A model generated the notes under the pieces. It ran no database searches and was not told where the DNA came from. It saw only the letters and a program-made list of their open reading frames with translations. Below, in pieces: positions 29,889 to 35,359 of a stretch of DNA of 64,000 nt. Within the stretch, counting starts at the first letter, position 1. The number at the start of each line of letters is the position of its first letter. The stretch covers positions 31,563 to 95,562 of the forward strand of contig LBWX01000001.1 of NCBI GenBank assembly GCA_000995065.1, in the 5' to 3' direction. The translations under genes were made by a program, and so were the position numbers. This DNA comes from a candidate division CPR2 bacterium GW2011_GWC2_39_35 (lineage in GTDB: Bacteria; Patescibacteriota; CPR2).

Positions 29889-29941
29889 TTGACACGCTAT
29901 ATATAGGGTTATAAGCTAACTTATAACACTATATATAGTAT
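29889..29941 (+). promoter_or_regulatory. two NrdR boxes (acgCTATATATAGgg and acaCTATATATAGtat) with cores 32 bp apart overlapping a TTGACA -35 element, upstream of nrdR
   Basis: palindromic CTATATATAG cores at 29897-29906 and 29929-29938; second copy is a near-perfect match to the NrdR-box consensus acacTATATATAGtgt; the region between is itself palindromic. Confidence 0.6.
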
Positions 29942-29953
29942 TAGGAGTTATCT

Positions 29954-30418
29954 ATGCAATGTCTTGATTGCAAACAAAATGATACAAAGGTTATGGAATC
30001 CCGCGAGCTTTACGACGGTGAGGTAATAAGGAGAAGAAGAGAGTGCTTGCATTGTAATTCTAGATTTACTACCTATGAGAGAGTAGAAACCCCAGTTCTT
30101 ATAATTGTAAAAAAAGATGGCAAGCATGAACAATTTATAAGGCAAAAAGTGGCCAATGGTATCTATAGGGCTTGCGAAAAACGAGAAATACCGCAGTTAC
30201 AGATTGAGCAAATTATTACTAAAATAGAAAAAAAATTAAGAGCTACTGGTGAATCAGAAATTTCCAGCAAAGAAATTGGAGAAATTGTGTTAGAAGAATT
30301 AGCAAATTTAGATGATGTAAGCTATATAAGATTTGCTTCTGTATACAAATCATTTACGGATATAGATAGCTTTCAAGATGTCTTAAATGAATTAAAGAAA
30401 GAAAAATCAAAAATATAA
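29954..30418 (+). CDS. nrdR: transcriptional repressor NrdR (zinc ribbon + ATP-cone)
   Basis: MQCLDCKQNDTKV...C..C zinc ribbon, ATP-cone (VIKKDGKHEQF). Confidence 0.9.
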   Translation: MQCLDCKQNDTKVMESRELYDGEVIRRRRECLHCNSRFTTYERVETPVLIIVKKDGKHEQFIRQKVANGIYRACEKREIPQLQIEQIITKIEKKLRATGESEISSKEIGEIVLEELANLDDVSYIRFASVYKSFTDIDSFQDVLNELKKEKSKI

Positions 30419-30428
30419 AGGGGGTAAA

Positions 30429-32261
30429 ATGCTTACAAGAGTTGCAAAGGAAAAACTGACAAAAGAGGCTGAAGAGTTATTGGAGAGCGCCTACTACCAT
30501 ACAGATTTTAGAGGAAGCGGTTTGGATAATTTTGATGGATTATGTAGGCGGGCGGCTAAAGAAGCTAGTAAAGCGGAATTTCGGGTGAGTTCCCGAATGC
30601 TTATTGAGGAAGAATTTTATAGTGCGATAGTCAATCTTAAATTTCTGCCAAGTTCCCGGATTTTAAAAAATATTGGATTGAACAATGATCTTCTCTCGGA
30701 TCGGATTGATTATCTAAAGAGCGATTTTGAAACGAACCACACCAATCCGGCTGAGCTTTTTAAGTCAAAGAATCTACTTTTTAAGCGAATTGACGATCCG
30801 GACATTGAAAATTTTTTAGATAAAGAACAGGATCTGGAGGTAATAACTGTTGTTAGCTTAACCGAAAATTTTATGAGCTCAGTAATTAAGGATGGTTATT
30901 ATGATTTACTCATGCACGGAAACGGACAACCGGTAAGGAAGTTAAGGGCGAGAGAAGTGTGGAGCAAGCTTATAGGGTTAATTATGCAGCGGGATGCAAT
31001 AAATATAGCTTTTGGCGATGAGGTGATGAGATCTAACAATATTTCCCCGTCAGAAAGCTTAAAAGAGTTAATGCAAATTTTTTATGAAGAAAGTTTAAGT
31101 GTCGGGTATATCAACCTAGCAAAATTCGTTCGAGATGAAGAAATTCTTTGGGATGACTTGCAAGATACCTTAAAGACCGGTGTTAGGTTTTTAAATAATG
31201 TTGTGGAACTTTTAAATGAGCCGTCTTGTAAGACAGTAAAAAGAAATCTTGGATTGGGAGTTACTGGCTTTGCAGATTTGCTCATTAAGCTTCGGATTCC
31301 GTATTCATCAAGTACAGCGGTTGATTTCGCTGAAAAACTCGCAAGGTTTTTATATGTTGAATCGAATAAAGCCATAGAGGAGGTTATGGCTGAAAAGCAG
31401 CACTCTAATGATGGCGACAATAGTCTCTTTATAAATAATAATAGTTATCTTGCGATTCTTCCTTCAAAGGAAATAGCAGTCATTACAAATACCGAGAAAG
31501 GCATTGATGCAATAAATAGCTTGGTAAACGAAAATGGCCAGATCAACTCTCTTTTTTATGAAATTGCAACGAGGGAAGGTTTTTACAATGAAGATTTGGA
31601 AAGCGCTCTTAAAGAAGATAATAAGGTTACATATAATAAACTATTTCCTCTAAAATGGCAGGATATCTTTGCTTTATCCAGCGAAATAGCTCCCGAAAAG
31701 CAAATTAAGATTCAAGCCGCTTTTCAGAAATATGTTGATAACATCGTCTTTAAAAACGTTAATATTTCCAAAGAAACAACTCAAAATGAATATGAAGACA
31801 TGGTATTAATGGCTTACAGGATGGGGCTTAAAATGTTGAGCATAACTAAAGAAGCAGAAGACGAAAAATACAACCCAATAACCGACAAAGAAGAGAATTT
31901 TCGTGAGACGGAAAGGATGCTTAAAAAATCTGATGAATTAGTTGTGTATGAGAGTAAGACTGTTAAGGTTAAGGTCCCCTGTGGAGAGCTCCTGGTTACC
32001 ATAAACACAAATGAGGTTAAAGAAAACCAGGGCATATTTGTTAATTTTGAAGGAAATAATAAGTGCGCTATACCGCAATTGCAGCTAGTAGCGAAGCTAA
32101 GTTTATCTCAAATCAATAATTCAGATAATAATGCTGAGGTTTTAGGAGAGTTAAGTAGGGTTACTTGTAAAGGACACAGTGATGATAATGAAGGTGTATT
32201 AATTGCCAAATCGTGTAGCGAAGCCATCGCGAAAGCTCTAAAGGTAGTAAAATCAGAATAA
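30429..32261 (+). CDS. ribonucleotide reductase large-subunit (class I/II NrdJ/NrdA-like) homolog lacking all catalytic cysteines: predicted pseudoenzyme with ~140-aa Cys-containing C-terminal tail
   Basis: RNR-alpha motif series in canonical order: FLPSSRILKNIG (cf FLPNSPTLMNAG), ENFMSSV, AREVWSKLIGLIMQRDAINIAFGDE, NLGLGVTGFADLLIKLRIPYSS (cf NRxxGLGxMGFADxL), NSYLAILPSKEI (cf NSxLxAIAPTGS), IQAAFQKYVD, MAYRMGLKMLSI. Positions expected for the C225/C439-E441/C462 equivalents read D (DLLSD), S..S (NNISPSE) and S/G (ESLSVGYINL); no Cys within 20 aa of any. Confidence 0.6.
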   Translation: MLTRVAKEKLTKEAEELLESAYYHTDFRGSGLDNFDGLCRRAAKEASKAEFRVSSRMLIEEEFYSAIVNLKFLPSSRILKNIGLNNDLLSDRIDYLKSDFETNHTNPAELFKSKNLLFKRIDDPDIENFLDKEQDLEVITVVSLTENFMSSVIKDGYYDLLMHGNGQPVRKLRAREVWSKLIGLIMQRDAINIAFGDEVMRSNNISPSESLKELMQIFYEESLSVGYINLAKFVRDEEILWDDLQDTLKTGVRFLNNVVELLNEPSCKTVKRNLGLGVTGFADLLIKLRIPYSSSTAVDFAEKLARFLYVESNKAIEEVMAEKQHSNDGDNSLFINNNSYLAILPSKEIAVITNTEKGIDAINSLVNENGQINSLFYEIATREGFYNEDLESALKEDNKVTYNKLFPLKWQDIFALSSEIAPEKQIKIQAAFQKYVDNIVFKNVNISKETTQNEYEDMVLMAYRMGLKMLSITKEAEDEKYNPITDKEENFRETERMLKKSDELVVYESKTVKVKVPCGELLVTINTNEVKENQGIFVNFEGNNKCAIPQLQLVAKLSLSQINNSDNNAEVLGELSRVTCKGHSDDNEGVLIAKSCSEAIAKALKVVKSE

Positions 32262-32289: not shown

Positions 32290-34434
32290 TTGAAAGAAAA
32301 TGCCGACATGGAGCAAGCTCAGCTTAATCTAGGAAAGAAAGTTCTAGAAAAAAAGCCTTTTACCCACATCATAAAGCGTAATGGAGATTTGGTTAGGTTT
32401 GAGAACGTAAAGATTACCAATGCAATTCTAAAGGCGGGAGCGGCCACAGGAGAGCTTAATGAAAAGCTTGCTAAGAAATTATCCGATAAAGCGGTAAATC
32501 TCTTAATAAGAAAGTTTGAGAATAACCCACCTACGGTTGAGCAAATTCAGGATGTAGTGGAACACATTTTAATTGATTCGATATTTGAGGAGACAGCAAA
32601 GGCCTATATCCACTATCGAAGAAAAAGGGCAGAGGCCAGAGAGGTTACAAAACTGCTTGACCCTCAAGCAATAATGGAAGGCTATCTTAATGAAACCGAT
32701 TGGCGAGTTAAAGAAAATAGTAATATGAGCTACTCGTTACAGGGTCTAAATAACTATATCAGTACAGCTGTGACCACTAAATATTGGCTCGAGAAAATGT
32801 ATCCTGAAAACATCAAGAAGGCTCATATCGACGGCGATTATCATATTCACGACCTATACATATTAGCGGCTTATTGTTCCGGTTGGGACTTAAAGGATCT
32901 GCTGCTAAGCGGTTTTGGGGGAGTGAGAGGCAAAATAGAGAGCGGGCCTGCTAAGCATCTTCGCGTTGCCTTAGGGCAGATTGTCAATTTCTTTTACACT
33001 CTTCAGGGGGAAGTTGCCGGCGCTGTTGCTTTTTCCAATTTTGATACTTACTTAGCACCTTTTGTCCGCTATGACAAGCTTGCTTATAAGGACGTTAAGC
33101 AATGCCTTCAGGAATTTGTTTTTAATATTAATGTTCCGACGAGAGTTGGTTTTCAAACTCCTTTTACTAATATCACTATGGACGTAAAGCCATCGAAGCT
33201 GATCGGTGAAGAGAATGTTATAATTGGCGGCAAGCCCCAAAAGGAAAAGTATAAAGAATTTCAGAAGGAAATGGATCTTATAAACAAAGCTTTTGCCGAA
33301 GTAATGATGGAAGGGGATGCAAAGGGTAGAGTCTTCACGTTTCCAATTCCGACTTACAATATCACAAAGGATTTTAACTGGGACAATCCGGTCTTAGATC
33401 CCGTCTGGGAGATGTCTGCTAAATACGGCATCCCTTATTTTTCGAACTTTATCAATTCTGATATGGATCCGGATGATGCTCGTTCTATGTGCTGTCGCCT
33501 TCGAATTGATAATACCGAGCTTCGAAAAAGAGGCGGCGGCTTATTCGGCGCTAATCCTCTGACGGGCAGTGTCGGAGTAGTCACAATTAATCTGGCCAGG
33601 GTCGGTTACTTATCTGAGAACAAGAAGGAATTTTTAGAAAGAGTCGGGACTCTGGCCGATCTAGCACATGAAAGTCTGATAATTAAAAGAAAAGCGGTCG
33701 AAAAGTTTACGTTAGAAGGTTTATATCCTTATGCGAAAGTTTATCTTGATAGTGTGTATAAAAGATATGGCAAGTATTGGCAAAATCATTTTTCGACCAT
33801 TGGAGTACTTGGTATGAACGAAGCCATGTTAAACTTTAGAGGAAAAGGCTTAGGCGATGAGGAATCTCGAAGCTTTGCATTAGAAGTAATGGATTTCTTA
33901 AATGACAAGATGCTTAGATATCAGAAAGAGACGGGAAATCTATATAATTTAGAGGCTACTCCCGGAGAAGGAACCACTTATCGGTTTGCAAGACTTGATA
34001 AGAAAAAATATGCTGATATTATGGTGGCTAACGAAGACGCATTTAGGGAAGGTGCTGAGCCATATTACACTAATTCTTCTTGGCATCCTGTTAATTTTAC
34101 AAACGATATCTTTGAGCTATTGGATAAGCAGGATGACTTTCAGACTAAATATACCGGCGGCACGGTGCTTCATAACTACATCGGCGAAAGAATTAATAAT
34201 GTTAATTCTTTTAAAAAGCTAGTAAAAACTATTGCTGAAAATTATAAATTGCCTTACTTTACTATTACTCCTACATTTAGCGTTTGCCCAAAACATGGAT
34301 ATTTAGCCGGGGAACATCACTTCTGCCCGATCTGCGATGAAGAAATTGGTTATAGAGAGCAGTTAACTCTAGAAATTCCAACGGAAAGTAAGACCCAATC
34401 AAAACTTAATGTTAAACAAAAAATAAAAGCCTAA
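32290..34434 (+). CDS. nrdD: anaerobic (class III) ribonucleoside-triphosphate reductase NrdD, large part (ATP-cone, barrel, thiyl-Cys loop, Zn ribbon), ending at an in-frame TAA before the glycyl-radical loop
   Basis: ATP-cone (IIKRNGDLVRFENVKI..AKAYIHYRRKRAEARE), HIHDLY..YCSGWD, thiyl-Cys loop SMCCRLRI, C-terminal Zn ribbon CPKHGY..CPICD; collinear with E. coli NrdD as recalled. Confidence 0.8.
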   Translation: MKENADMEQAQLNLGKKVLEKKPFTHIIKRNGDLVRFENVKITNAILKAGAATGELNEKLAKKLSDKAVNLLIRKFENNPPTVEQIQDVVEHILIDSIFEETAKAYIHYRRKRAEAREVTKLLDPQAIMEGYLNETDWRVKENSNMSYSLQGLNNYISTAVTTKYWLEKMYPENIKKAHIDGDYHIHDLYILAAYCSGWDLKDLLLSGFGGVRGKIESGPAKHLRVALGQIVNFFYTLQGEVAGAVAFSNFDTYLAPFVRYDKLAYKDVKQCLQEFVFNINVPTRVGFQTPFTNITMDVKPSKLIGEENVIIGGKPQKEKYKEFQKEMDLINKAFAEVMMEGDAKGRVFTFPIPTYNITKDFNWDNPVLDPVWEMSAKYGIPYFSNFINSDMDPDDARSMCCRLRIDNTELRKRGGGLFGANPLTGSVGVVTINLARVGYLSENKKEFLERVGTLADLAHESLIIKRKAVEKFTLEGLYPYAKVYLDSVYKRYGKYWQNHFSTIGVLGMNEAMLNFRGKGLGDEESRSFALEVMDFLNDKMLRYQKETGNLYNLEATPGEGTTYRFARLDKKKYADIMVANEDAFREGAEPYYTNSSWHPVNFTNDIFELLDKQDDFQTKYTGGTVLHNYIGERINNVNSFKKLVKTIAENYKLPYFTITPTFSVCPKHGYLAGEHHFCPICDEEIGYREQLTLEIPTESKTQSKLNVKQKIKA

Positions 34435-34449: not shown

Positions 34450-34620
34450 ATGAAACCCATAGAAGAAATAGAAAATTTAGAAGACAAGAGACAACCTTGC
34501 GAAGTATTCTCGCGAGTGGTTGGGTATATTCGGCCGGTTCATCAGTGGAATAAAGGAAAACAATCGGAATTTAAGGACAGAAAGTTACTCAATATGGAAT
34601 TAGATATAGAAGAAGTTTAA
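34450..34620 (+). CDS. 56-aa NrdD glycyl-radical peptide (separately initiated C-terminal fragment of NrdD)
   Basis: GGAGGGAAAG SD then ATG; CEVFSRVVGYIRPVHQWNKGKQSEFKDRK matches the NrdD glycyl radical signature (RVCGYLG..NxGKxxEVxxR); same reading frame as 32290..34434, separated by a single TAA (34432-34434). Confidence 0.6.
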   Translation: MKPIEEIENLEDKRQPCEVFSRVVGYIRPVHQWNKGKQSEFKDRKLLNMELDIEEV

Positions 34621-34657: not shown

Positions 34658-35359
34658 ATGATTATCAGCGGTTTAGAAAAAACGACGCTTATTGACTATC
34701 CGGGCAAAATTGCCGCAACTATTTTTACATACGGGTGTAATTTTAGGTGCGGTTTTTGTCATAATCCAGACCTAGTGATCGGAAAAAAAGAAGATAGACC
34801 AATTATTACCGAGGAAGAAATATTAACTTTCCTTAAAAAACGAAAGGGTATCTTGGAGGGTGTTTGCATTACGGGCGGAGAACCGACTATCCATAAAGAT
34901 TTGCCGACATTTATTAACAAAATAAAGAAAATAGGGTTGAATGTAAAACTTGACTCTAACGGCACAAATCCCGAAATGCTAAAAGAATTAATCGAAAATA
35001 ACCTGATTGATTATATTGCCATGGACATTAAAAATTCTCTTAGCGAGTATAATCTCACGACAAACACAAGCGTTGATACCGGAAAAATTAAAGAGAGTAT
35101 CAAGATTATCCTCAGTAGCGGTCTTCACTACGAATTTAGAACAACGCTACTTCCAAGGCTGCATAATAAGACCGCTTTGGATGAAATAGGGCGTTTATTA
35201 AAGGGCGCTAAGAAATATACATTACAGGGCTTTCGTCCGGGCATAACTATTTCTAAAAGTTTTGAGACGGAGAAAATCTTTAGCAAGGAAGATCTTATTG
35301 AATTAAAGATGGTTCTTAAGAAATATGTTAAGGATATCGAAGTAATTGATAATTTGTGA
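34658..35359 (+). CDS. nrdG: anaerobic ribonucleotide reductase activating protein NrdG (radical SAM)
   Basis: CNFRCGFCHNP radical-SAM/NrdG cluster motif near N-terminus; 233 aa; immediately downstream of nrdD. Confidence 0.85.
   Translation: MIISGLEKTTLIDYPGKIAATIFTYGCNFRCGFCHNPDLVIGKKEDRPIITEEEILTFLKKRKGILEGVCITGGEPTIHKDLPTFINKIKKIGLNVKLDSNGTNPEMLKELIENNLIDYIAMDIKNSLSEYNLTTNTSVDTGKIKESIKIILSSGLHYEFRTTLLPRLHNKTALDEIGRLLKGAKKYTLQGFRPGITISKSFETEKIFSKEDLIELKMVLKKYVKDIEVIDNL

What the first reader, a model, noticed from the sequence alone, without database searches (positions are those of the whole stretch)
30429..32261. Catalytically dead ribonucleotide-reductase alpha homolog embedded in the NrdR-controlled anaerobic nrd operon
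The 610-aa product carries the class I/II RNR large-subunit motif series in canonical order (FLPSSRILKNIG; AREVWSKLIGLIMQRDAINIAFGDE; NLGLGVTGFADLLIKLRIPYSS; NSYLAILPSKEI; IQAAFQKYVD; MAYRMGLKMLSI), so the 10-stranded barrel is very likely retained. At the three positions where the redox and thiyl cysteines sit in NrdA/NrdJ (C225-, C439/E441- and C462-equivalents) it reads DLLSD, NNISPSE and SLSVGYINL: no Cys and no Glu. It also lacks an ATP-cone and carries a novel ~140-aa tail with four scattered Cys. It sits between nrdR and nrdD-nrdG behind two NrdR boxes, so it is co-regulated with the functional class III enzyme. An inactive RNR paralog here could act as an allosteric nucleotide sensor, a scaffold or chaperone for NrdD, or have been exapted to a non-radical function.
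Basis: partly seen in the sequence, partly recalled or inferred. Interest (0 to 1): 0.8.

Follow-up and report, generated by a model that had tools for sequence, protein, structure and literature searches.

The report
Dead B12-type ribonucleotide reductase relic protein
A groundwater CPR2 bacterium keeps, inside its anaerobic ribonucleotide-reductase operon, a badly eroded copy of a B12-type reductase that cannot do the chemistry, yet related genomes keep it as a protein under selection, so it is a bacterial pseudoenzyme of unknown job, not junk and not an enzyme.

Summary
The 610-aa ORF at 30429-32261 is real. It is a homolog of class II (NrdJ) ribonucleotide reductase of the subclass with a Cys-rich C-terminal domain.

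It cannot be a reductase:
- The finger loop (NPCGE, carrying the thiyl Cys, Asn and Glu) is deleted.
- Both redox Cys are replaced.
- About 60 residues are missing, covering strand betaA through the loop-1/specificity-site helices.
- The phosphate-binding APTG and SSGIEP motifs are degenerate.
- The terminal six-Cys zinc finger is gone.

The barrel is therefore not intact. The "novel tail" is the known IscU-like/TSCPD domain. Lack of an ATP-cone is normal for this subclass.

The gene sits in one NrdR-boxed operon: nrdR, this gene, nrdD, a glycyl-radical peptide, nrdG. Syntenic orthologs occur in three other CPR2 lineages and are absent from five. They are only 25-29% identical to each other, against 77-81% for NrdD, yet all are intact. 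The one close pair gives dN/dS of 0.10-0.18.

Verdict: a fast-evolving, selected pseudoenzyme derived from NrdJ, with unknown function. A nucleotide-sensor role is unlikely.

Side finding: NrdD here, and in many CPR and DPANN genomes, is split, with a separately encoded glycyl-radical peptide.

The parts
29894..29909 (+). NrdR box 1 (ACGCTATATATAGGGT), overlapping a TTGACA -35-like hexamer
   Evidence: 2 mismatches to the palindromic consensus. Only two matches occur in 64 kb, against 0.24 expected. The same box lies at about -60 of nrdR in relatives. Sequence read.
29926..29941 (+). NrdR box 2 (ACACTATATATAGTAT), 32 bp from box 1
   Evidence: 1 mismatch. A box at the same offset is found in L001.
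29954..30418 (+). nrdR, the repressor (Zn ribbon plus ATP-cone)
   Evidence: PF22811, PF03477. TIGR00244 scores 190.6 bits against a cut-off of 124.65.
30429..32261 (+). The finding: a 610-aa catalytically dead NrdJ-derived protein. A Shine-Dalgarno GGGGG lies 5 nt upstream of the ATG.
30456..30683 (+). Residues 10-85: retained RNR N-terminal all-alpha domain, ending in FLPSSRILKNIG
   Evidence: PF00317, E 2.9e-8, 34.1 bits against a cut-off of 28; helices at pLDDT 76-96.
30690..30773 (+). Residues 88-115: degenerate stub. It replaces about 85 canonical residues (betaA Cys, helix alphaA, GGGTGFSFSRLRP loop 1, SSGPVSF helix alphaB, QGGxRRGA).
   Evidence: alignment gaps; C aligned to R. (pLDDT below 50 for 88-115).
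30774..31856 (+). Residues 116-476: remaining barrel. The second half-barrel core is recognisable: GYINL, VRFLNNVVE, NLGLGVTGFADLL, QAAFQKYVD, MLSITK.
31041..31091 (+). Residues 205-221: remnant of the finger-loop region. The NPCGE motif (thiyl Cys, Asn, Glu) is deleted, and the betaF 'ESCNLG' reads 'ESLSVG'.
   Evidence: 8-column gap; C aligned to L, N to S.
31941..32255 (+). Residues 505-609: IscU-like/TSCPD domain with Cys518, Cys545, Cys580 and Cys596. The terminal six-Cys zinc finger of canonical NrdJ is absent.
32290..34434 (+). nrdD large subunit (ATP-cone plus class III barrel plus Zn ribbon). It ends before the glycyl-radical motif.
   Evidence: PRK08270 scores 1023.8 bits against a cut-off of 548..
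34450..34620 (+). 56-aa glycyl-radical peptide (…CEVFSRVVGYIRPVHQWNKGK…) with its own Shine-Dalgarno sequence
   Evidence: matches the last ~30 positions of the NrdD models.
34658..35359 (+). nrdG, the radical-SAM activase
   Evidence: TIGR02495 scores 206.6 bits against a cut-off of 131.

Best explanation
SHOWN. The ORF is a descendant of a dimeric, Cys-rich-domain-type class II ribonucleotide reductase (NrdJ). It has lost every element needed for nucleotide reduction, for substrate and effector binding, and for re-reduction. It still folds as an RNR-like shell: the N-terminal helical domain, about 8 of the 10 barrel strands with the second half-barrel best preserved, and the IscU-like domain. 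It lies 10 nt downstream of nrdR and upstream of nrdD, the glycyl-radical peptide and nrdG, behind a promoter covered by two NrdR boxes. Co-transcription is inferred from this arrangement and has not been shown. Orthologs at the same position in a well-supported CPR2 subclade are all intact. They have diverged to 25-29% identity, and in the one close pair they are under purifying selection as strong as that on nrdG.

INFERRED. Catalysis was lost in or near the subclade ancestor, plausibly when B12-dependent reduction became useless to an anaerobic symbiont-like cell that has NrdD. A burst of relaxed or adaptive change followed, and the protein then settled under constraint as a non-enzymatic accessory protein. 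The most likely mode of action is protein-protein binding through the conserved second half-barrel and the IscU-like domain, which in real NrdJ mediates oligomerisation. That would make it a scaffold or partner within the class III RNR system, not a nucleotide sensor. The partner is unknown.
For: Homology and fold
- The AF2 model has pLDDT 77.9 and pTM 0.74.

Loss of function
-. In one search, only 74 of 204 near-invariant NrdJ columns are kept. None of the betaA Cys, GGGTG..LRP, SGP, QGGxRRGA, NPCGE, CN(betaF), APTG, SSGIEP or terminal Cys array survives in any of the four lineages.

Operon
-.

Orthologs and rates
-. Between deep lineages the RNR-like protein is 25-29% identical, against NrdD 77-81%, FtsZ 83-89% and NrdG 50-56%.

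Selection
- L004 against L009 aligns over 534 codons without gaps.
- dN/dS is 0.10 (NG86) or 0.18 (YN00), against 0.13 or 0.15 for nrdG.
- Windows range from 0.03 to 0.20, lowest over codons 181-360.
- Differences by codon position are 75/55/210.
- 0 of 2000 neutral simulations stayed stop-free.
- The composition-based chance of 610 open codons is 1e-22.

Not an artefact
- The same protein was recovered on 9 contigs from independent assemblies.

Distribution
- The subclade of carriers plus L002 has 196/200 bootstrap support.

Role of the Cys-rich domain
- Its role in NrdJ oligomerisation is reported in PMC5704485 and PMC9669993.
Against: - No expression, binding or phenotype data exist.
- The gene is absent from five related lineages that have the same nrdR-nrdD-peptide-nrdG cluster, so it is dispensable.
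- Only 15 canonical residues are shared by all four lineages. The IscU-domain Cys are not conserved among orthologs, so no common functional site can be named.
- Deletions differ in extent between lineages, which looks like ongoing erosion.
- Purifying selection was measured in one pair only, with dS near 1 (close to saturation), and not in the window's own lineage, for which only identical copies exist.
- The AF2 alignment consisted of canonical NrdJ, so the model leans toward that fold.
Confidence: 0.6

Rival explanations
1. It is a slowly decaying relic with no protein-level function. The reading frame stays open only because premature stops would be polar on the essential downstream nrdD-nrdG, or because decay is unfinished.
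For: - It diverges far faster than its neighbours.
- Deletions differ in size between lineages.
- NrdJ-model scores fall stepwise: 268, then 186, then 55 bits.
- It is cleanly absent from five relatives.
- nrdR overlaps the RNR-like gene by 8 nt in L001 and L004, which is compatible with translational coupling.
Against: - Polarity would select against stops, but it would not produce dN/dS of 0.10-0.18, a 75/55/210 codon-position pattern, or an ungapped 534-codon alignment at 21% nucleotide divergence.
- Four lineages keep 1.6-1.8 kb intact in very small genomes.
- Constraint is concentrated on the half-barrel core, not spread uniformly.
Confidence: 0.25
2. It is an allosteric nucleotide sensor. 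The dead barrel would still bind dNTP or ATP and report nucleotide status to NrdD or NrdR.
For: Operon context with two ATP-cone proteins, NrdR and NrdD. Pseudoenzymes often keep ligand binding (general knowledge).
Against: - There is no ATP-cone.
- The alphaA/loop 1/alphaB segment is deleted or unmodelled. In T. maritima NrdJ this segment builds the dimer interface and the specificity site (the 1xj* entries whose titles appear; otherwise my own knowledge).
- The substrate phosphate-binding motifs APTG and SSGIEP are degenerate in all lineages.
Confidence: 0.05
3. It is an Fe-S or redox accessory protein acting through the IscU-like domain. The four Cys would bind a cluster or relay electrons for NrdG or NrdD.
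For: - Its four Cys sit at the conserved Cys columns of canonical NrdJ. PMC9669993 reports that 253 of 600 cluster-2 NrdJ tails have Cys at the four IscU ligand positions. Whether the window's four Cys correspond to those IscU ligand positions was not mapped.
- The radical-SAM gene nrdG is a neighbour.
Against: - The Cys set is not conserved in the L001, L004 and L009 orthologs.
- No Fe-S role is known even for real NrdJ.
- The Cys may be simple ancestral leftovers in the least-eroded copy.
Confidence: 0.07
4. It is still an active reductase using unconventional residues, or the missing parts are supplied in trans as in the split NrdJa/NrdJb enzymes.
For: Split class II RNRs exist, for example P. 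aeruginosa NrdJa+b.
Against: - The thiyl-radical finger loop, which I know to be universal to all RNR classes, is physically deleted.
- Internal barrel strands cannot be supplied in trans.
- No second NrdJ fragment is found in the window or the related loci.
- Scores are far below all curated cut-offs.
Confidence: 0.01

Closest known systems
Dimeric class II ribonucleotide reductase NrdJ with Cys-rich C-terminal domain (NCBIfam PRK08665/TIGR02504; T. maritima NrdJ, PDB 1XJE; S. nassauensis NrdJd)
   Same: - Clear common ancestry: 27-32% identity over about 98% of the length.
- Same domain order: N-terminal helical domain, barrel, IscU-like domain.
- NrdJ genes are commonly under NrdR control (my own knowledge).
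   Different: - All catalytic, substrate, effector and re-reduction elements are lost.
- About 60 residues and the finger loop are deleted.
- There is no terminal zinc finger.
- It scores 268 against a cut-off of 961 bits.
- It evolves several-fold faster than its neighbours.
It is not a member in the functional sense.
Herpesvirus RNR large-subunit homologs with non-catalytic roles (betaherpesvirus M45/UL45, catalytically inactive; EBV BORF2, which binds APOBEC3B, PDB 7RW6)
   Different: - Those are class I-derived, viral, and have known host targets.
- This one is class II-derived, cellular (a CPR bacterium), embedded in an nrd operon, and more severely truncated.
- The inactivity of M45/UL45 is from my own knowledge and was not checked here.
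NCBIfam NF005401 (PRK06948) 'ribonucleotide reductase-like protein' subfamily
   Same: An annotated group of bacterial RNR-like proteins that are not called reductases. Weak match at 68 bits, E 6e-19.
   Different: The score is far below the cut-off of 906. The match covers only residues 225-351. It is not a member. I did not examine what PRK06948 proteins retain.
IscU/NifU Fe-S scaffold fold (Pfam TSCPD as found at NrdJ C-termini)
   Different: - It is just under the Pfam cut-off of 22.8.
- The Cys are not conserved in orthologs.
- Cluster binding is not established even in true NrdJ.

Membership tests
Class II RNR (NrdJ), functional enzyme | RNR alpha fold: N-terminal helical domain plus 10-stranded alpha/beta barrel | tested here: inconclusive
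Class II RNR (NrdJ), functional enzyme | Score above the curated family cut-offs | tested here: not met
   PRK08665 scores 268.4 against 961. TIGR02504 scores 141.2 against 399.95. Orthologs score 186 and 55 bits.
Class II RNR (NrdJ), functional enzyme | Thiyl-radical Cys with Asn and Glu on the finger loop (NPCGE) | tested here: not met
   An 8-residue deletion in the window protein. The loop is substituted in L004 and L009 and mostly deleted in L001.
Class II RNR (NrdJ), functional enzyme | Redox-active Cys pair on betaA and betaF | tested here: not met
   betaA 'LSACF' reads 'LSDRI'. betaF 'ESCNLG' reads 'ESLSVG'. Both are lost in all four lineages.
Class II RNR (NrdJ), functional enzyme | Loop-1/specificity-site segment and substrate phosphate-binding motifs (GGGTGFSFSRLRP, SSGP, QGGxRRGA, APTG, SSGIEP) | tested here: not met
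   The first three are deleted. APTG reads LPSK and SSGIEP reads TEKGIDA.
Class II RNR (NrdJ), functional enzyme | C-terminal Cys-rich domain: IscU-like domain plus six-Cys zinc finger/redox pair (PMC5704485, PMC9669993) | tested here: not met
   The IscU-like part is present. The six-Cys terminal array is absent, because the protein ends about 100 residues early.
Class II RNR (NrdJ), functional enzyme | Adenosylcobalamin binding | not testable with these tools
   There is no sequence motif diagnostic enough to test. It would need binding assays.
NrdR regulon / nrd operon member | Tandem NrdR boxes about 31-32 bp apart at the promoter, and co-directional tightly spaced genes | tested here: met
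   Boxes at 29894 and 29926, the only two in 64 kb. They are conserved in relatives. Gaps between genes are 10, 28, 15 and 37 nt. No convincing internal terminator was found. Transcription itself was not observed.
Pseudoenzyme (dead homolog retained by selection) | Catalytic residues lost but the ORF is intact and under purifying selection | tested here: met
   Intact in four lineages. dN/dS is 0.10-0.18 for L004 against L009. This could not be measured for the window's own lineage.
Pseudogene | Frameshifts or stops, or omega near 1 | tested here: not met
   There are no stops in 534-610 codons in any lineage. The other frames of the same DNA have 15-87 stops. A neutral simulation stayed stop-free 0 times in 2000.
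IscU/TSCPD domain | Fold match, Pfam score above cut-off, and conserved ligand Cys | tested here: inconclusive
Known anti-phage defence proteins (PADLOC) | Match to any PADLOC model | tested here: not met
   No hit for the window, L001 or L004 proteins.

The most novel reading that the evidence does not exclude
The CPR2 proteins are a new family of bacterial RNR-derived pseudoenzymes that gained a role specific to the two-piece class III reductase of these organisms. One possibility is a docking or protection platform that presents the free 56-aa glycyl-radical peptide to NrdG or to the NrdD body. Another is an oligomerisation partner acting through its IscU-like domain. Either would make it the first cellular example of an exapted RNR alpha subunit.
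Probability: 0.15. Interest if true: 0.75.

Novelty: new variant of a known kind. Interest (0 to 1): 0.5.

Why it matters
1. Annotation. GenBank and UniRef call these proteins 'Ribonucleoside-diphosphate reductase' or 'Vitamin B12-dependent ribonucleotide reductase'. Metabolic reconstructions of CPR2/Howlettbacteria would therefore wrongly credit them with a B12-dependent, oxygen-indifferent route to dNTPs. The only credible RNR in this locus is class III.

2. Evolution. This is a rare case where the fate of a lost essential-enzyme paralog can be followed in a streamlined genome. The copy is inactivated, changes very fast, and then comes under renewed constraint. Sister lineages that deleted it serve as natural controls.

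3. Biochemistry. If a partner is found, it would extend the idea of an RNR alpha subunit used as a protein-binding module from herpesviruses to bacteria.

The by-product may matter more. A class III RNR whose glycyl-radical domain is a separate gene, widespread in CPR and DPANN, would be directly testable. It would bear on how glycyl-radical enzymes are activated and repaired.

Tried and rejected
- **Close relatives by sequence search.** The word-indexed search and exhaustive HMMER over 1.84 billion representatives found nothing above about 35% identity except the protein itself. A profile of the four orthologs again returned only canonical NrdJ. It even missed the L001, L004 and L009 proteins, which are in the collection. 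Orthologs had to be found by synteny through NrdD.
- **Metagenome scan with the ortholog alignment.** It added no new lineage of the dead family. It re-found two known ones and turned up a different RNR-like group.
- **Defence-system role.** No PADLOC hits.
- **Active-enzyme and trans-complementation readings.** Rejected on sequence grounds. No second NrdJ fragment is found in any locus.
- **Sequencing or assembly artefact.** Rejected, because the identical protein occurs on 9 contigs and L003 is identical.
- **Common origin with the NrdJ next to NrdD in a Nanoarchaeia contig (L087).** No special similarity: 34% identity over 73 residues only.
- **Literature searches.** They found no description of a dead bacterial NrdJ or of a split NrdD. 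The library is open-access only, so absence is weak evidence.
Full report
**What is there**

The ORF listing gives an ATG ORF of 610 aa at 30429-32261 on the + strand. A GGGGG Shine-Dalgarno sequence lies upstream, and nrdR ends 10 nt before the ATG. The neighbours, all on the same strand, are map, ftsA, ftsZ, nrdR (29954-30418), this ORF, nrdD (32290-34434), a 56-aa ORF (34450-34620) and nrdG (34658-35359).

The protein and its neighbours carry GenBank and UniRef names from candidate division CPR2 bacteria. The 56-aa neighbour is named for GW2011_GWC1_41_48.

**Homology**

- Pfam matches are Ribonuc_red_lgC (E 6.4e-34, in two pieces), Ribonuc_red_lgN (E 2.9e-8) and a weak TSCPD.
- The best NCBIfam families are all NrdJ. 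PRK08665 scores 268 bits against a curated cut-off of 961, and TIGR02504 scores 141 against 400.
- The best solved relative by sequence is T. maritima NrdJ.
- An AF2 model built on 80 NrdJ homologs has pLDDT 77.9 and pTM 0.74.

The protein is specifically class II.

**Catalytic state**

I aligned the protein with canonical relatives. I then made a column-by-column comparison against 204 positions that are at least 90% conserved in 80 NrdJ sequences. These show:

- The betaA Cys is replaced (LSACF becomes LSDRI).
- About 60 residues that follow are missing: helix alphaA, the GGGTGFSFSRLRP loop 1, the SSGPVSF helix and QGGxRRGA. They are replaced by a stub, residues 88-115, that AF2 cannot place (pLDDT below 50).
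- The NPCGE finger loop, which carries the thiyl Cys, Asn and Glu, is an 8-residue deletion.
- betaF ESCNLG reads ESLSVG.
- APTG and SSGIEP are degenerate.
- The protein ends before the six-Cys zinc finger and redox pair. Loderer et al. showed that array to be required for turnover (PMC5704485).

The protein keeps 74 of the 204 conserved positions. It cannot be a reductase.

Three details of the finding need correction:

- 'NNISPSE' aligns upstream of the finger loop, not at it.
- The barrel is not intact.
- The tail is not novel.

**Regulation**

Only two matches to the NrdR box occur in the 64 kb, at 29894-29909 and 29926-29941. They are 32 bp apart, overlap a TTGACA hexamer and lie upstream of nrdR. 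Shuffles give a mean of 0.24 matches. Relatives have boxes at the same offsets. Intergenic gaps are 10-37 nt, with no convincing internal terminator. The five genes are therefore most simply read as one NrdR-autoregulated operon. That reading is inferred and was not observed.

**Relatives**

Sequence searches find nothing close. Apart from the protein itself, the best hits in 5.8 billion proteins (word-indexed search) and in 1.84 billion cluster representatives (exhaustive HMMER) are ordinary NrdJ at no more than about 35% identity.

Synteny does find orthologs. Among contigs whose NrdD is 73-81% identical, the result is:

| State | Loci |
|---|---|
| 534-536-aa RNR-like ORF between nrdR and nrdD | L001; L004=L012 (bacterium CG2_30_37_16 / Ca. 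Howlettbacteria); L009=L011 (CPR2 GW2011_GWC2_39_10) |
| nrdR abuts nrdD directly | L002, L006, L007, L008, L010 |

On an NrdD tree, the four carriers plus L002 form a clade with 196/200 bootstrap support, inside a CPR2 clade with 200/200.

**Evolutionary rate and selection**

Identity between the three deep carrier lineages:

| Protein | Identity |
|---|---|
| RNR-like | 25-29% |
| NrdD | 77-81% |
| FtsZ | 83-89% |
| NrdR | 51-68% |
| NrdG | 50-56% |

None of the four copies retains any catalytic motif, and only 15 canonical residues survive in all four. All 15 lie in the barrel between betaE and the FQKY motif, most of them in the second half. Deletions differ in extent. NrdJ-model scores fall from 268 to 186 to 55 bits.

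Yet every copy is an uninterrupted ORF:

- The other five frames of the window ORF contain 15-87 stops.
- The composition-based chance of 610 open codons is 1e-22.

The only pair close enough for codon analysis is L004 against L009:

- It aligns over 534 codons without a gap.
- Differences by codon position are 75/55/210.
- dN/dS is 0.10 (NG86) or 0.18 (YN00), the same as nrdG at 0.13 or 0.15.
- Windows range from 0.03 to 0.20, lowest over the second half-barrel.
- Neutral simulation at the same divergence never stayed stop-free and gave 57% amino-acid identity, against 78% observed.

So the family encodes a protein under purifying selection, at least in that branch. Deep divergence is much larger than NrdG's, while recent divergence equals NrdG's. 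This pattern suggests an early burst followed by constraint. That is an inference from few data points.

**Interpretation**

The most economical reading has four steps:

- An ancestral nrdJ lay next to nrdD. This adjacency also exists with an intact Cys-rich-domain NrdJ in a Nanoarchaeia contig (L087).
- It lost catalysis in or near the ancestor of one CPR2 subclade.
- It diverged very fast.
- It persists as a non-enzymatic protein.

A nucleotide-sensor role is unlikely, because the specificity-site elements and the phosphate-binding motifs are the parts that are gone, and there is no ATP-cone.

What remains conserved is the half-barrel core and, weakly, the IscU-like domain, which in true NrdJ is implicated in oligomerisation. 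I therefore favour a protein-binding accessory or scaffold role within the class III system, with about 0.6 confidence for the whole package and much less for any particular partner.

The main rival is a functionless relic kept open by polarity on nrdD-nrdG (about 0.25). It explains the dispensability and the erosion, but not the dN/dS.

An Fe-S role for the four Cys is possible for this lineage only, because the orthologs lack them.

**Comparison with known systems**

The protein is derived from NrdJ but fails every functional membership criterion tested.

I found no paper describing a dead bacterial NrdJ. It is therefore a new variant of a known kind, narrow in distribution and without a demonstrated function.

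Public annotations as 'Vitamin B12-dependent ribonucleotide reductase' or 'Ribonucleoside-diphosphate reductase' are misleading.

**Side observations**

*Split NrdD.* NrdD in this window stops right after its Zn ribbon (…CPKHGY…CPICDEEIGY…). The glycyl-radical motif (CEVFSRVVGYIRPVHQWNKGK) is on a separate 56-aa ORF with its own Shine-Dalgarno sequence.

- The split is present in all nine distinct CPR2-clade loci examined, usually in a different frame. It is therefore not a sequencing error.
- Among 84 loci where both motifs could be paired, 33 are split and 51 are fused, the fused ones mostly with a 72-nt spacing.
- Split loci come from Patescibacteria, DPANN archaea and Elusimicrobiota. Fused loci come from Omnitrophota, Desulfobacterota, Saccharibacteria, Berkelbacteria and others.
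- A 2026 review states that spare-part glycyl-radical proteins are known only for formate lyases (PMC13450708). My searches found no description of a split NrdD.

*A different RNR-like group.* A metagenome scan also turned up a group of about 570-aa proteins that keep the three Cys but lack loop 1. Each is followed by a PfkB-family kinase gene (L097-L099).

Noticed in passing
window 32290-34434 and 34450-34620; also L001-L014, L016, L019, L021-L023, L025, L026, L028, L031, L033, L036, L038, L040, L043, L050, L063, L064, L072, L083, L087: The class III reductase NrdD is split. The large subunit ends just after the Zn ribbon. A separate 50-89-aa ORF with its own Shine-Dalgarno sequence carries the glycyl-radical motif (SRVVGY). 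The split is conserved in all CPR2-clade loci, usually in a different frame. Among 84 PRK08270-type NrdD loci where both motifs could be paired, 33 are split (Patescibacteria, DPANN archaea, Elusimicrobiota) and 51 are fused. A 2026 review says stand-alone glycyl-radical 'spare parts' are known only for formate lyases, and I found no paper describing this. It may be more interesting than the assigned finding.
   Followed up: partly
L097 3518-5227, L098 2516-4237, L099 2644-4395 (metagenome contigs): These loci encode a distinct group of ~570-583-aa RNR-like proteins. They keep the betaA Cys, a finger-loop 'PPC[SA]E' (Asn replaced by Pro) and the betaF Cys. They lack the GGGTG..LRP/SSGP loop-1 segment and any C-terminal Cys tail. 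TIGR02504 scores about 335 bits, below the cut-off of 400. Each is immediately followed, with overlapping stop and start, by a PfkB-family kinase; in L097 the kinase is fused to NUDIX. They are not next to nrdR or nrdD. They could be an unusual class II RNR or a repurposed radical enzyme.
   Followed up: partly
L087 3-1286 and 1319-3304; L031 2496-4961 and 5001-7010: In a Nanoarchaeia contig, an apparently intact Cys-rich-domain-type NrdJ sits directly upstream of a split nrdD (only its C-terminal 428 aa are on the contig; APTG, SGIEP and the terminal Cys array are present). In a Woesearchaeota contig, a class I NrdA with an ATP-cone sits directly upstream of nrdD. Adjacency of a second RNR class to nrdD is thus recurrent in small-genome lineages.
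   Followed up: partly
window 30429-32261 (GenBank KKR18674.1, KKR29504.1, HBG81454.1); orthologs KKQ95294.1, OIP24117.1, PJB07222.1: Public records name these dead proteins 'Ribonucleoside-diphosphate reductase' or 'Vitamin B12-dependent ribonucleotide reductase'; others call them 'hypothetical protein'. The enzyme names are misannotations and could mislead metabolic reconstructions of CPR2/Howlettbacteria.
   Followed up: yes
(method note): The word-indexed protein search did not return the L001, L004 and L009 orthologs even when they were part of the query profile, although exact look-up shows they are in the collection. For fast-evolving families, 'no close hits' from that tool is not evidence of absence. 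Synteny recovered them.
   Followed up: yes
L002 925-5126: L002 is the one lineage inside the carrier clade that lacks the RNR-like gene. Its region between ftsZ and nrdR is rearranged, with an insertion of VWA, MoxR-type AAA and peptidase M10 genes. It has 176 nt between nrdD and the glycyl-radical ORF. This is compatible with secondary loss there.
   Followed up: no
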